A stretch of DNA of 64,000 bases from Candidatus Sulfomarinibacteraceae bacterium (GTDB lineage: Bacteria > Acidobacteriota > Thermoanaerobaculia > Thermoanaerobaculales > Sulfomarinibacteraceae): assembly GCA_963796455.1 (NCBI GenBank), contig CAWCLO010000004.1:800001-864000 (forward strand), in the 5' to 3' direction. Positions 23,901-47,900 of this stretch are shown here, one piece after another; the stretch's first letter is position 1, and each line of letters starts with the position of its first letter. The position numbers were made by a program.

Positions 23901-26900
23901 TGTCGCCGACTTTGAATCGCCGCCAACCAACGACCAGCTCGCGGCTTCCCGGTGTCAACAGCTCCTGCAGACGTTCGTTGAGGCGGGTCACTCCGAGCTC
24001 ACCCCGGTGCATCGGCGCAAGAACCTGGATGTCCCTGATGGGATCGAGCTTGAAGTGTTCAGGGATTCGGGTGGTCACGAACTCGATGGCGAGTTCGGCG
24101 GCCTCGGCGGGATCGTCACGAGCGACAAAATAGAAATCGCTGTCGCCGTCGTCGTTTTCGATCTTCGGCATGCCACCGGAGTTGACCCGGTGAGCATTGT
24201 CGACGATCAGACTGCGCCGGGACTGACGGAAGATGTGTTCGAGCCGGATCACCGGAAGCGAGCCCGATTTGATCAGGTCGGCGAGGACGTTGCCGGGGCC
24301 GACTGAAGGCAACTGATCTGCGTCCCCGACGAACACGAGTCTGCATCCAGCCGGAATTGCCTCCATGAGGGCAGCCGCCAACTCGATGTCGAGCATCGAA
24401 ACCTCGTCGATCACCAGACAGTCTGCGGCGATCGGATTATCGCGGTTGCGGCTGAATTGCCTTGTCTTTGGATTGAATTCGAGCAACCGGTGGATCGTTT
24501 TTGCTGCCAGGCCGGTAGATTCCGTCAGCCGTTTGGCCGCGCGGCCGGTTGGCGCCGCCAGCAGGACACAAAGCTCTTTGCGTCCGAGAATCTGCACGAT
24601 GCCGCGGACCAGGGTCGTCTTGCCGGTGCCGGGGCCACCGGTGATCACGACCATTTTTTCCCGCAAAGCGGCTATCAGGGCTTCTCGCTGGCGGGTGGCG
24701 AGGCGGATATTGGCTTCCCCCTGATACCAGGAGACCGCGGTATTGATGATGATCGGTGCGCAGGCGTCCGGTCGTTCCAGGATGGCCGCGAGTGTGTACG
24801 CGACAAGCTCTTCGGCCTCGGCGAGACGCGGCAGGTAGATCGCAGGGCTTTCGTTCTGCCTCGGATGGATCACGACCATGCGTCTCGCGACGAGTCCTGC
24901 GAGGGCCGACGGGAGTGCTTCGGATGAAATCTCGAGCAGGTTTGCGGCGTTGGCCAGCAGCTCCTCTTCGGGGAGAAAGACGTGGCCCTGACCGGCCGCC
25001 TCCTGCAGTGAGTGGAGGATACCGGCTTCTATGCGTTCCGGGGCGTCGGCGGCGATTCCGAGCTGACGTGCAATACGATCCGCGGTCAGGAATCCGACGC
25101 CGAACACCTCCTCGGCGAGCTGAAAGGGATTGGACCGAACCACTTCCAAAGCCGCGGGGCCGTAGCGGCGAAAGGCCTTGACGGCGATCCCGGGCGCGAC
25201 GCCGTGCCCGGTGAGGAAGATCATCACCTGCTGGATGCCGCGATGTTTCTCCCAGGACTCCCGGATGCCCTCGAGCGTGGCGTTGCCGATGCCGCGAATC
25301 TTCAGGAGCCGCTCGAGGTCGGTGTCGAAAACGTCCAGCGTTTCGAGACCGAAGGCCTCCACGATCTGGGCGGCACGTTTGGGCCCGACGCCGCGGATCT
25401 TTCCCGAACCCAGGAAGCCGCGCAGGCCTTCGAGGGTTGAGGGCGCGATCTGAACATAGGATTCAGCCTCGAACTGCTCGCCGTACCGAGGATGGTTGAC
25501 CCATCGCCCGCTGAGGCGGAGCTGGTCGCCCTGGTGCGCGCCGAGAAGGGGGCCAATCGCCGTCAGCGCCGGTTTGTCGTCGGGTTGAAGCCTTACAACG
25601 CACCAACCGTTCTCTTCGTTGGCGAACAGAACGCGTTCAATCCGGCCTTCAGCCGTCTCTCGCTCCTCTGATCTTGTACCGAGCATCGCTGGAGATTGTA
25701 CGGCAATCACGCAGCTTTGTGGCGTTTTCCGGTCTACTCGGTGCCAGCAAAGCCCATCGAGAGTCGAATATTGTGTGCGTTCTCTGCGTCTGTGAGAGCC
25801 TCGAGTAGCGTCAGTGCGACCTCGATGGCGGTTGCAGGTGACGTGGAAGTCACGACATTTCCGTCGCGAACGATTGACTGCGAAGACACCTCGACCCCGA
25901 AATCGGCAAGTTGGCGCATTCGCCGGCCGTCGCCGAGATGATAGGTGGTGGCGCGGCGGCCCTTCAGAACACCCGAGTTGGCGAGCGGGAGCGCACCGAC
26001 GCAGATCGAGGCGATGGGCATCGACCGTTCGTCGAAGGCCCGGATGAGATTCGAGACGCGTTCCGAATAGGCATCGTCGTAGAACCCGTGTTCTTCGAAT
26101 CCACCCGGAACCGCCAGGGCGTCAAAGGATTCCACATCCACCTCGTCGACCAGCACATCGGGGAGGATGCGCAAACCGAAAGTACAGCGGACCTCCCTTT
26201 CGAGCCCGGCGGTCACCACCTCGATCGGTTCCGATCCTTCGGTGGACGCCCAGCCGAGCACGTCGAAGAAGGCAGCCGTTTCGAAGACCTCGGCGCCTTT
26301 TGGTATCAACAACAGCACTCGTTTCACTGCGAGTCTCCTTGACCTATTACTTGGATCAGCCGTCTTCGGCTCGGCAGTAGTGGAGAGTCACGACGCCGTT
26401 TCCCGAGCGATGTGTTCCGACGAGCTGGAGGGACTGGCGTTTTCCGGGATCGACGAAAAGCGGGATCCCATCGCCGAGAACGACCGGTATGACAGTGATG
26501 ACGAACTCGTCGATCAGATTCTGCGCGCGGAACGAACCGGCCAGTTGGCCGCCGCCAACCAGCCATGCGTGGCTAAAGCCTTCGGCCTCGATTTCGGCAA
26601 GCACCTCCGCCGGTCCCTCGGGGCTGATCGAGATCTCGAGACGGGTGGGCTGTAAGGGACGATCGCTCATCACCCAGCACCGTTTGTCGTCATAGGGCCA
26701 GTCGCCAAAGCCCAGGACCTGTTCATAGGTTGTACTGCCCATGACCATGGCGTCGATCGACGCGAAGAAATCCGCATAGCCGAAATCTTCGCCCTCTACG
26801 CTGACGTCCTCCAACCAATCGAGTCCGCCATCGGGGGTGGCGATAAAGCCATCCAGGCTGCAGGCCACATAGTAGGTCACCGTAATCATGTGCCGTCCTT

Positions 26901-44900: not shown

Positions 44901-47900
44901 ATCATTCAGCCTTTCCCTGCAGTCCACCCAACGGTCCGATTGGCCCGGCCCGAGACCGCAGTGGGTGGGGCCCGTTGGAACGTCGTGTCATACCCATGTT
45001 CAACAATAATACCTAGCGCGAGTCGGTCCCTCGGAGATCGATGGCCAGATATCGGGAGGGTCCGTATTCCGGGTCCTCGAAGTCACGCAAAAATCGAAAT
45101 CCGGCTTTCTCGAACGCCGCAAGCGCTGCATGATTCAAACGCGACGTCCCGACGCCCGCCCAGCGCACCTCAGAGTTTTGGCGGAGGCGGTCGATGAGCA
45201 GGCAGAGTGCCCGTGGCCCTATTCCGCAGCCGACGAACCGCAGTTCACCGATGAGAATATCGATGTCGAGAAGGGCATCGGGGAGGTCAGTCAAGCCGGC
45301 GGCCATGAGCTCTTCGACTTCAGGTGGTCCCCAGCAGAGGTATCCAACGGGAATGGTATCCACGACGATCACTGCGTGAGTGCTCGGGCGTCGGCCCAGC
45401 AGAAGGGGAAGAGCTTGGATCTGATCGCCCCACCAGCGAATGACATGTGGGCGTTGGAGCCAGGCATCGAGCAGTTCCCGGTGTTTTTGCGGATTGACCG
45501 GTTGGAGTTCTACGTGATTCTCAAAGCTTTTTGGATCCATAGCGTCGTTTTGTGCCTTATAGGTTTTAGGGGTTTCTGCTGGGCATCATAAAAGGAACAG
45601 TTGTGGTTGCAAGGATTGCCCATTTGGGGTCGTCGAAGGAATTGTTGAGATTCAGGCGCGAATCGAGTACCCATGTTCCCTGGACCGGTTTGCTACCTCT
45701 TCCCTGGCGGATTCAGACGGTTCGTTGACGTTGCACGACTCAGCTGAACCGAGTGCGGGTGTCTATTTCATGGGAGTGCCGAGTGTGACTTCATAGGACT
45801 CGATGAGCCACTTTTCCCAGACTTTATTGGGTATCGGCTGCTCCGCTGTGAATCGGGCGGTCACCCAACCCGTCGATCCCACTTCATACCGCTTCGGATC
45901 CTCCTCGGCGAACTTGAGCGCCTCCGGTATCGAGGCCTTCAGCTTGAACATCGCTTTGAATCCTTGTCCCTTCGGGCCAGGGCCGATAAACAAAAAAGTG
46001 CCCTTCCCGACTTTGAAAGTGCTTTGGGAGCACGACTTTCCTGTTAGCACGCCCGGAAGGGCCAGAGCTTGCCGCAGAATTGCGTCTGTGGGGTCTTGGA
46101 TACCGCTCATTTTGAACCTCCTGTCGAGAGCCCGCCGTGCAGCACTGGTCTGCTGCAACGATCTGTAAGGTGGCCCGCACTAATGCAGTTCCTGTGAGTC
46201 ACCTGGCTGCAGAAGATCCCATAGGTTGCCGTAGAGGTCTTGAAACACGGCCACTGTACCGTAATCGAATTCCTTTGGTTCGCGCACGAAAACGACGCCT
46301 TTTGACCTCAAGAGGTCGTAATCGCGAACCACGAGGGAGACAATTGCAAGTTTGCGCTTCATCTGTTCAGACCTTCCTGTGCCTCGGCGAGGGTTGCCTG
46401 AGGTTTCGAATCCAGCCGACCGAGGCCGCTACGGTTGGGAGTCCGCTGGAATGAAGCGTTAGGCCTCCAGCTGTTAGCCGTGCTTCGCTCCGGTGCCATC
46501 GGGTTGCACGCCAATCCAATCTTCAGCAGAGGGAGACGGTCGGCGCTCGGGGAACCCTTGCTGACCAAAACTGTATTGATTTCCGAAATCGTCTTCTGCA
46601 ACGAAAGGAGATTCAGATGGCAATAGCTCAAGTCTTGAGGTGAGTTTGGCGAATGACTCCTCAGAAAAGACAATCGTCCTCAGGGTATTCTCCGCAGTGG
46701 CATAGAGCAGGACTCGAGTCGGCCATTTACCGTGCGAAAGATAGAAGCCATCGACGGCCGCGCAAAGCCTGATCCAGCTCTGATCAAAACCATTTGGCAT
46801 AATGCATCTCCCTGTCTGACGGTCCGCTGCATCCGTGGGTCAGGTGTCGTGGCCCGTGCGGCTACATGTTATTCGGCGTTTGGTTGAGACGATCGAACGA
46901 ACGACTGGAACCCACCGTACGCCATCCGTTGAGCATCAAATCCTGAATTCGATGAAGCAATCAAATCCGCCATCCTTGGGTCCGCCGCGACCTTCTTGTT
47001 TACCAGATCACGTGCCTCACGAGAATCAAATACCACCCATCCAAATACGATGACTTCATCCTCCGTTGCAGCTATGAGATCAGTGAAGGAGCGAGTTCCC
47101 TCCAGTCTCAAATCGTCACCGACGAATTCCCGGTAGTCGAGCGCGCCATGTTCCTTCCAGATCTCCGCAACCGCTTCAGCGAGACGCTTGTACTCATTCA
47201 GGCGATCGCGCGGAACGGGAAGAACGAATCCATCAACATAGTCAGCCATAACTGCTCCGATAGTGGTAAGTGAATCTTGTGTTTTCAGCCGCCGAACGGC
47301 TGCGAGCTGAGCGGCGCCGCCAATCCCACTCCAATCTTCAACTCCACCCCGGGCGGCGTCCGCTCCAGCGAGTTGTTAGGGGCCCAATCAAGCTGGTGCA
47401 CGGCAGAGAATCAGTCGCGATGGTATGTTGCAACGTACCAGTTGTTTCCTGCTGGATCCTTGACAGCTGAGGCGCGCTCTCCATAGTCCATTTCCATGGG
47501 CTCGTGTAGAACCTCGGCTCCATTTTGCACGGCGCGTTGGTGGCATTCGTCTACATCCGGTACATAGATGTGAATCGCACCTGGCATCGGTCCGTACGCG
47601 TCGGTAGCGTCGGCCAGTTCAATGGTGGCGTCCCCGAGCCGCACCGATGCATGTCTGAGCCGCCCATCCTCCGTCTCGACCCTGTCAGTGACCTCCACAT
47701 CGAATACCGCTACTAGAAAGTCCAGCAGCTTCTGCGCACCGTCGACAGTGAGGTAGGGGGTCACGCGGGTGAAACCGTCTGGCACATAGGACTCGCTCAT
47801 GATGCTCCTCCTCGAAAAACTTGGTCGGACACGTTGGCATCGCAACCGAAAACAACACGGTCAGACGGGCGCCTAGCGGTCCGAGTTCAGCGGATCGAGG

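What a model noticed while it worked through the whole genome (the two positions that open the first line are those of the whole stretch)
25734..45591. Integron cassettes outlive their attC sites: a 20-kb attC-less, ameliorated tail and a detached attC island
About 40 short co-oriented cassette-type genes continue the sedentary integron array for 20 kb with no attC site, their GC3 rising toward the genome mean at the far end, whose last genes are shared with congeners. A second island at C1:780762-786953 holds four attC sites of the same family among toxin-antitoxin genes, without an integrase.
Evidence so far: attC profile from 33 array sites finds only one decayed hit in the tail (844927-844988) and four at C1. 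GC3 0.60-0.62 in the array, 0.63, 0.70, 0.71 outward, genome 0.72; median length 114-136 aa. Distal genes g02332 and g02334 match side by side in at least 7 congeners with variable content inward. Tail genes have paralogues among true cassettes' families (GFA, glyoxalase, TfoX, SnoaL).
(Added by a program. Inside this text positions count along the whole contig: contig position 800,001 is position 1 of the stretch shown here. "Call 12" and the like, gene names such as g00115 and contig names such as C1 are that model's own, and its searches are not shown. The text may have been shortened before it was handed on; [...] marks where a part breaks off. The agent that wrote the report below was given it as the finding of a first reader that could run no searches.)

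Follow-up and report, generated by a model that had tools for sequence, protein, structure and literature searches.

The report
Integron cassettes fixed after losing attC
At the old end of a gene-capturing array in a sediment bacterium, about 40 small genes have lost the recombination sites that once made them mobile and now look like ordinary host genes, which shows how captured genes can become permanent parts of a genome.

Summary
Observation largely confirmed; interpretation mostly supported, with corrections. A 52-site attC array (its intI is only a 3' fragment, co-oriented with the cassettes) grades through decayed and half attC sites (window 44.5-46.8 kb) into 37 co-oriented short genes with no attC signal above chance. 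Outward, GC3 rises 0.59 to 0.71 (genome 0.72) and spacers shrink from over 120 to 33 nt. Nine of 37 tail genes have attC-flanked homologues elsewhere (VF530 83%, VOC 69%, TfoX_C 68%) against 13 of 1,777 control genes. The same locus in congeners shows every stage, from intact integron to tail only; other integron loci of the genus also end in tails. The outermost shared genes (DJ-1, thioesterase) show no cassette evidence, so the outer boundary is open. The C1 island is not loose attC: it is an integron remnant (attI, intI tip, two whole and two half attC) between tRNA-Thr repeats. Cury et al. 2016 predicted this end state; my 10 literature searches found no description of it. The scan earlier noted a decayed integrase-less array in another Thermoanaerobaculia genome, but not such a tail.

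The parts
23497..25686 (-). recD2 helicase, conserved core gene that closes the locus
   Evidence: Pfam HHH_RecD2/OB_YrrC; found in 20 of 25 genus genomes
25734..28940 (-). Outermost block: DJ-1/PfpI, RibD_C, thioesterase, DUF4440, methyltransferase, lumazine-binding protein. Oldest part; cassette origin not shown
   Evidence: Pfam; DJ-1 and thioesterase each in 11 of 16 congener intervals; no attC-flanked homologue; dN/dS about 0.05-0.16 between congeners
28964..36402 (-). Middle tail: GFA x2, cupin, HAD, VOC, OmdA, DUF2007, methyltransferase, TfoX_C, DUF3024, GNAT, VF530, DksA-type zinc finger and unknowns, no attC trace
   Evidence: Pfam; attC-flanked homologues of GFA (54%), DUF2007 (49%), TfoX_C (68%), VF530 (83%)
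36501..37320 (+). Inserted repeat element carrying a four-helix-bundle (23S_rRNA_IVP) gene; not part of the cassette series
   Evidence: Pfam PF05635; dozens of 80-90% identical copies genome-wide
37368..44380 (-). Inner tail: VOC x2, TfoX_N, DUF3995, FGE-sulfatase domain, methyladenine glycosylase, GFA, SnoaL, membrane proteins; no attC signal above chance
   Evidence: Pfam; arm scan; VOC at 41,318 is 69% identical to a gene followed by a decayed attC in G008
44516..44540 (-). attC 5' half-site remnant 17 nt after a stop codon; 3' arm lost
   Evidence: arm matrix p=0.023 against 3,987 control gene ends; no hairpin
44927..44988 (-). Decayed whole attC of the native family
   Evidence: 18 bits, E=0.011; both arms score; folds no better than shuffles, z=-0.15
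46148..46171 (-). attC 5' half-site remnant
   Evidence: arm matrix p=0.02
46397..46464 (-). Outermost recognisable whole attC, right core box mutated
   Evidence: 35 bits; z=-2.7
46822..46845 (-). attC 5' half-site remnant
   Evidence: arm matrix p=0.021
47285..64000 (-). Window part of the attC array (continues to C4:877,202, then attI at 877,943-877,961, a DUF4160/DUF2442 pair, and the intI 3' fragment at 878,636-878,935, all on the minus strand)
   Evidence: intact sites fold at z about -5

Best explanation
The tail is the oldest part of a sedentary integron that has sat between a potassium-channel gene and recD2 since early in this genus. New cassettes entered at attI and pushed older ones outward (established integron mechanism). 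At the far end attC sites were lost in two visible ways, by point decay and by deletion of the 3' arm (shown), and finally vanished as spacers shrank (gradient shown, order of events inferred). Without attC a gene cannot be excised, so it is inherited vertically, drifts to host codon usage and is kept or lost like any accessory gene (host-tracking GC3 and low dN/dS shown for the shared genes; expression not shown). Genes that survive are general detoxification and stress families. In this genome the integrase has since been cut to its last third, so the remaining array is probably frozen and on the same path. The outer 3 kb may be still older cassettes or ordinary host genes that the tail abuts. 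The C1 island is a separate, integrase-less platform (attI plus about five cassette units) on a tRNA-Thr islet.
For: Graded attC signal. 9 of 37 tail genes vs 13 of 1,777 other short genes have an attC-followed homologue in a 2.5-Mb pool (Fisher p=9e-11); array genes 14 of 46. VF530 83% between two intact attC in L064, TfoX_C 68% between decayed attC in L061, DUF2007 49% between intact attC in L328. Converse case: a protein that is an attC cassette here (C4:869,580) lies without attC in the tails of G006 and G015. Same locus in congeners: intact intI + array + tail (G006), intI fragment + array + tail (G014), array + tail (G020, G013, G001), tail only (G005, G008, G012, G015, G016, G017, G018, G019). 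Tails also end arrays at two other conserved loci and in metagenome contigs; one gene family (C1:676,037) sits at 77-85% identity in tails of three different loci. 10 of 17 array proteins with a congener match are 85-100% identical, 0 of 18 tail proteins (maximum 84%). GC3 of DJ-1 and thioesterase follows host recD2 GC3 (rho 0.82, n=9 and 0.81, n=10) while attC cassettes stay at 0.56-0.62 in all 10 hosts. Median spacer 183/124 nt in the array, 69, 87, 33 nt outward; genome 42. GFA, VOC and acetyltransferases are among the most cassette-enriched families (PMC10661359, passages).
Against: 28 of 37 tail genes have no attC-flanked homologue in the pool, and only 5 of the 9 reach 45% identity. No attC trace at all over 18 kb. 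0 of 29 thioesterase and 0 of 5 DJ-1 phylum relatives are near an attC; they sit among long ordinary genes. The GC3-tracking evidence rests on those two genes plus OmdA (n=4); DUF3995 does not track (rho 0.05, n=5). The locus-B relic in this genome has 0 of 8 cassette homologues. Some arrays have little or no tail (L326, L329, L331). The control set is not matched by protein family. Trees are weak: thioesterase roughly follows recD2 but G014 moves; DJ-1 is unresolved.
Confidence: 0.75

Rival explanations
1. The integron landed in front of a pre-existing run of small host genes, or of an unrelated gene-insertion hotspot upstream of recD2; the tail genes never had attC and the gradient is two adjacent regions of different origin.
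For: Thioesterase relatives occur in 48 of 401 phylum genomes in ordinary contexts; a few other runs of 7-12 short co-oriented genes exist in the genome; no attC trace over 18 kb. Fits the outer 3 kb well.
Against: Does not explain graded decay, tails behind arrays at other loci ending at different core genes, the same families in tails of different loci, strict co-orientation of 37 genes, or the 30-fold enrichment for cassette homologues.
Confidence: 0.15
2. Direction reversed: the tail is a donor pool of host genes from which cassettes are made, so resemblance to cassettes reflects recruitment out of the tail, not decay into it.
For: The way cassettes are made is unknown (PMC4889954 section 25); tail genes have host-like GC3; VF530 cassette is 83% identical.
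Against: Cassette copies have low GC3 (VF530 0.61 in L064) whatever the host; half and decayed attC sit exactly at the junction; tail content is patchy between species (only 13 of 37 genes match any of 16 congener intervals).
Confidence: 0.05
3. The tail still carries working recombination sites too divergent to detect (for example attG-like or foreign attC), so its genes remain mobile.
For: Foreign attC types occur in the array (47.3 and 49.7 kb); gene order differs between species for DUF3995.
Against: A sequence-independent attC grammar gives 2 hits in the tail, both inside genes, as in random 20-kb windows (0-3), against 34 in the array; 11 of 34 tail spacers are 30 nt or shorter; no tail gene is over 84% identical to a congener copy.
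Confidence: 0.05

Closest known systems
CALIN with degenerate attC as a step to gene stabilisation (Cury et al. 2016, PMC4889954; abstract, passages and section 25 read)
   Same: That paper proposes that CALINs with very degenerate attC are an intermediate between capture by an integron and definitive stabilisation. The array here is integrase-less in effect and decays at its end.
   Different: It is stated there as a hypothesis. Here the end state (no attC at all, host-like codon use, shared between species) lies in one continuous gradient with the array, and all stages are seen at one locus across a genus. The tail itself is invisible to attC-based detection.
Sedentary chromosomal integrons of Vibrio (PMC11023631 and 10.1101/2023.11.17.567518; passages read)
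   Same: Large homogeneous attC array at a fixed locus, toxin-antitoxin cassettes, shared cassette pool between related species.
   Different: intI is co-oriented and upstream of attI, and truncated; by GC skew the attC bottom strands lie on the lagging-strand template, the orientation that in V. cholerae raises excision and selects integrase inactivation. The V. cholerae array is described as an isolated unit; here the array appears to leak genes into the stable genome.
Xanthomonas integrons with inactivated intI and retained cassettes (10.1101/2025.06.18.660453; passages read)
   Same: Ancestral locus in a genus, lineage-wise integrase loss, frozen cassettes kept across strains.
   Different: Those cassettes are defined by their attC; the passages I saw do not describe attC-less tails.
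Integrons with co-oriented intI such as that of Treponema denticola (recalled, from no call)
   Same: intI transcribed in the direction of the cassettes, attI downstream of its stop codon.
   Different: No attC-less tail recalled for these; integrase relationship not tested.

Membership tests
Complete sedentary chromosomal integron | Full-length integron integrase | tested here: not met
   Only residues 211-310 of a 318-aa congener IntI are present (86% identical); TIGR02249 below cut-off; the two other tyrosine recombinases are 24-29% identical, Xer-like. Genome 90.5% complete.
Complete sedentary chromosomal integron | attI site at the head of the array | tested here: met
   Motif conserved behind intI in congeners; 2 copies in this genome, 19 in 11 of 25 genus genomes, 0 for the reversed control.
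Complete sedentary chromosomal integron | Large array of homogeneous attC hairpins, one per gene, co-oriented | tested here: met
   52 profile hits; bottom strands fold with z about -5.
Complete sedentary chromosomal integron | Fixed chromosomal locus across related species | tested here: met
   K-channel gene to recD2 interval holds intI, attI, attC or tail genes in congeners.
Complete sedentary chromosomal integron | attC bottom strands on the leading-strand template | tested here: not met
   GC skew puts cassette genes on the C-rich (lagging) strand in 12 of 12 stretches of this locus; skew sign calibrated on the ribosomal-protein operon.
Complete sedentary chromosomal integron | Pc promoter and recombination activity | not testable with these tools
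   Needs transcript mapping and recombination assays.
CALIN | Cluster of attC sites without a working intI nearby (C4 array; C1 islet) | tested here: met
   C4: 52 sites beside an intI fragment. C1: two whole and two half sites, no intI protein match. IntegronFinder itself was not available.
CALIN | attC sites present (the 25.7-44.1 kb tail) | tested here: not met
   Profile, grammar and arm matrices at chance level. The tail is not a CALIN; it looks like what one becomes.
tRNA-targeting genomic islet (C1) | Direct repeats of the tRNA 3' end at the borders | tested here: met
   tRNA-Thr(CGT) at C1:802,117-802,191; 3' copies at 787,901-787,950 and 780,455-780,497.
tRNA-targeting genomic islet (C1) | Own site-specific recombinase | tested here: not met
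   No PF00589 or PF07508 match there.

The most novel reading that the evidence does not exclude
In this acidobacterial genus integrons act as conveyor belts that deposit permanent genes: each old platform leaves an attC-free run of former cassettes that outlives integrase and array. This genome alone would hold about 65 such genes at three loci (37 here, 20 at C7:102.7-113.9 kb, 8 at C1:672-676.5 kb), none visible to attC-based tools, so integron contribution to stable bacterial gene repertoires would be underestimated in general, and tails would be a ranked list of cassettes that selection kept.
Probability: 0.5. Interest if true: 0.78.

Novelty: new variant of a known kind. Interest (0 to 1): 0.62.

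Why it matters
Whether integron cassettes ever become permanent host genes has been proposed but is hard to see, because once attC is gone the trace is gone. This locus keeps the whole series in order, and relatives show each stage at the same site, so the rate of attC loss, amelioration and retention can be measured. It also gives a rule for finding dead integrons (long co-oriented runs of small cassette-type genes at loci where relatives have arrays) and points to which cassette functions are useful enough to be kept.

Tried and rejected
Rfam and tRNA scans of the window: nothing. First attC grammar was too strict for the native 7-nt spacer and found 0 sites in the array; relaxed and rerun. 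Weak profile hit at 42,171-42,222 rejected: E=1.6, folds worse than shuffles. Within the array proper, attC score does not fall steadily with distance (rho 0.18, p=0.2); only the outer 8 sites are lower (median 47 vs 71-72 bits). Promoter and terminator scan of the tail: at or below shuffle levels, uninformative. Sequencing runs: no RNA holder listed; contigs of four sediment DNA runs gave only short pieces and no informative joint. Looked for an integron at tRNA-Thr in congeners: none of the 11 stretches fetched beside the racemase gene has attI or attC (8 reach the tRNA), so the C1 islet looks private. Looked for attC beside phylum relatives of thioesterase and DJ-1: 0 of 29 and 0 of 5, 1.5 kb flanks. 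One G005 stretch (C20) turns into unrelated-looking sequence after the last attC and was not used as a tail. Literature: 10 searches found no paper describing an attC-less ameliorated tail or integrons in Sulfomarinibacter; the library lacks most subscription papers, and supplements were not read. PMC8618304 held none of my search terms.
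Full report
Setting. The window is C4:800,001-864,000 of a 5.0-Mb, 10-contig, 90.5% complete genome. Named GTDB records that carry the same attC arm in many copies are titled Thermoanaerobaculia and Candidatus Sulfomarinibacteraceae, and earlier notes call the genome acidobacterial, so that lineage is likely; I did not test it further. No gene caller was available, so I trained a dicodon model on 1,356 long ORFs and curated the tail by hand.

Anatomy. Everything runs on the minus strand. From the head: a potassium-channel gene (C4:881.3-882.1 kb), three small genes, the last third of an integron integrase (878,636-878,935; residues 211-310 of the 318-aa IntI of congener G006, 86% identical), a DUF4160/DUF2442 pair, attI (877,943-877,961), 52 attC profile hits down to 846,397, the tail, and recD2. 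intI is co-oriented with the cassettes. No full IntI was found in the genome. The attI call rests on a motif found at the same place behind intI in congeners; it occurs 19 times in 11 of 25 genus genomes and never in the reversed control. Intact attC bottom strands fold at z about -5.

Is the tail free of attC? Three tests. The profile finds only the decayed site at window 44,927-44,988. A structure grammar finds 34 sites in the array but 2 in the tail, both inside genes, like random windows (0-3 per 20 kb). Arm matrices trained on congener sites and calibrated on 3,987 other gene ends score 9 of 10 gene ends at 46.3-53 kb, 3 of 5 at 44-46.3 kb and 3 of 35 at 25.7-44.1 kb for the 5' arm. The junction holds three 5' half-sites (44,516-44,540; 46,148-46,171; 46,822-46,845) and two decayed whole sites. 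So the array fades rather than stops, and 18 kb beyond carry no trace.

Gradients. GC3 is flat at 0.59 in the array and rises 0.65, 0.70, 0.71 outward; short genes of the genome average 0.72. Median spacers fall from 183 and 124 nt to 69, 87 and 33 nt (genome 42). Minus-strand coding density rises from 0.53 to 0.88. Of array proteins with a match in the fetched congener DNA, 10 of 17 are 85-100% identical; of tail proteins 0 of 18, maximum 84%, the range of core genes. Array cassettes are therefore recently shared between species and tail genes are old.

Were tail genes cassettes? I pooled 2.5 Mb from congeners, 137 metagenome stretches and 142 GTDB stretches around attC, marked attC by profile and grammar (0 grammar hits in 1.2 Mb of control sequence) and asked for each short protein whether a homologue ends just before an attC. 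Tail 9 of 37, array 14 of 46, all other short genes 13 of 1,777 (p=9e-11; 8, 14 and 12 before the last loci were added). Counts are per query, so overlapping loci do not inflate them. Clear cases: VF530 (35,800) 83% between two intact attC in L064; TfoX_C (34,460) 68% between decayed attC in L061; DUF2007 (33,135) 49% between intact attC in L328; VOC (41,318) 69% before a decayed attC in G008; GFA (32,185) 54% in L231. Conversely the cassette at C4:869,580 has attC-less relatives (62-63%) in the tails of G006 and G015. Against: 28 of 37 have no such homologue, the control is not family-matched, and none of the 37 hits this genome's own array. For the outermost genes the test fails: thioesterase relatives occur in 48 of 401 phylum genomes and 0 of 29 fetched have an attC; DJ-1 0 of 5.

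The same locus in the genus. Between the K-channel gene and recD2, G006 has intact intI, array and an 8-gene tail; G022 has intact intI; G014 an intI fragment, attI, array and tail; G020 attI, array and tail; G001, G013, G004 and G021 some attC without intI seen; G005, G008, G012, G015, G016, G017, G018 and G019 only 3-11 co-oriented small genes. 13 of the 37 tail genes match at 45% or more in at least one of 16 such intervals; DJ-1 and thioesterase in 11 each, OmdA in 7, DUF3995 in 6; order is mostly colinear, DUF3995 is not. GC3 of DJ-1 and thioesterase follows the host's recD2 (0.68-0.93; rho 0.82 and 0.81), while attC cassettes stay near 0.6 in all 10 hosts; DUF3995 does not follow. dN/dS between congeners is about 0.05-0.16 for DJ-1, thioesterase and OmdA and 0.2-0.26 for DUF3995. 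Trees are compatible with mostly vertical descent but weak.

Other loci. Congeners have integrons at two more conserved sites, near queA and near kdsB/pyrG; both arrays fade into attC-less runs (G001, G008, G024, G014), as do metagenome contigs L061, L068, L072, L105 and a sister-family stretch L053-L054. This genome keeps only the run at both sites: C1:672-676.5 kb (8 genes, 0 of 8 cassette homologues) and C7:102.7-113.9 kb (20 genes, 6 of 19). Apart from the ribosomal-protein operon, the C4 and C7 runs are the longest of 15 runs of short co-oriented genes. Some arrays at other sites have little or no tail (L326, L329, L331), which fits younger platforms and shows that a tail is not automatic.

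The C1 island. It lies between two 3' copies of tRNA-Thr(CGT) (780,455-780,497 and 787,901-787,950). It begins with 200 nt 74% identical to the intI stop region and spacer of G014, then an attI (787,374-787,392). The first cassette is 91% identical to C4:875,440-875,938 from the crossover point on; then HicB(A), MazE/PemK (91-94% DNA identity to congener cassettes), an opposite-strand protease gene, HTH-HipA and one more cassette. Two attC are whole, two are 5' halves. None of 11 congener stretches at this site has attI or attC. It is an integrase-less integron remnant, a known kind.

Mechanism. Shown: order of parts, graded attC loss by point decay and 3'-arm deletion, compositional and spacing gradients, cassette homologues, all stages across species. 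Inferred: that distance from attI equals age, that attC loss fixed the genes, and that selection kept the useful ones. GC skew places the cassette genes of this locus on the lagging strand in 12 of 12 stretches, so attC bottom strands lie on the lagging-strand template; in V. cholerae that orientation raises excision and selects integrase inactivation (PMC11023631, passages). This may explain why intI is usually lost here, but the queA locus has the other orientation in its long stretches and also has tails, so orientation is not required. Expression is untested.

Known work and verdict. Cury et al. (PMC4889954; abstract, passages, section 25) proposed degenerate CALINs as a step to definitive stabilisation. 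GFA, VOC and acetyltransferases are cassette-enriched families (PMC10661359, passages). Xanthomonas keeps frozen cassettes after intI loss (10.1101/2025.06.18.660453, passages). The V. cholerae superintegron is described as an isolated unit (10.1101/2023.11.17.567518, passages). Ten searches found no description of attC-less tails; the library is partial and supplements were not read. I rate this a new variant of a known kind: no new machinery, but unusually direct evidence for a predicted last step, confidence 0.75 for about 29-45.6 kb, open for the outer 3 kb. Interest 0.62.

Noticed in passing
G000 C4:878,560-878,610; C1:787,510-787,570; G006, G014, G001 at the same place: A second conserved motif with att-like inverted boxes sits right at the intI stop codon. 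When intI is lost, its 3' tip, this motif and attI are repeatedly what is kept (C4, C1, G014, G020:C10, G001), as if a promoter or binding site there were selected.
   Followed up: partly
G000 C4:878,053-878,520; G008:C27, G020:C10, G005:C20, G016, G024: A small gene pair (DUF4160/DUF2442 here, other pairs elsewhere) lies between intI and attI, outside the array proper, in several platforms of the genus.
   Followed up: no
G000 C4:878,977-879,982: Small co-oriented genes directly upstream of the truncated intI have homologues that are attC cassettes elsewhere (39-41% in L061/L094; 36% in G008), suggesting that cassette-type DNA replaced the 5' part of intI.
   Followed up: partly
window 36,501-37,320 and 17,919-18,770: Two copies of a dispersed element with a four-helix-bundle (23S_rRNA_IVP) gene and heptamer repeats; dozens more in the genome. 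Already noted by the scan.
   Followed up: partly
L326, L328, L329, L331, L332, L327: attI-headed arrays without an intact intI occur at many different chromosomal sites in the genus, up to four attI in one genome (G003); how platforms move is unexplained.
   Followed up: partly
G000 C1:933,990-938,365: Another run of 9-10 short co-oriented genes; 2 of 9 have attC-flanked homologues at 46-47%, a possible fourth relic.
   Followed up: partly
G000 C4:1,121,087-1,121,553 and C6:15,389-15,977: Toxin-antitoxin-like pairs far from any array that are up to 91-93% (C4) or about 50% (C6) identical to attC cassettes of congeners; possible stray cassettes.
   Followed up: no
G000 C4:864-878 kb: Several attI-proximal cassettes are split by stops or frameshifts (for example the first one, 877.2-877.9 kb); decay or long-read error not separated.
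   Followed up: no
G001, G016, G024 arrays: A 143-144 nt double-hairpin attC-like unit recurs almost unchanged in several arrays, apparently gene-less.
   Followed up: no
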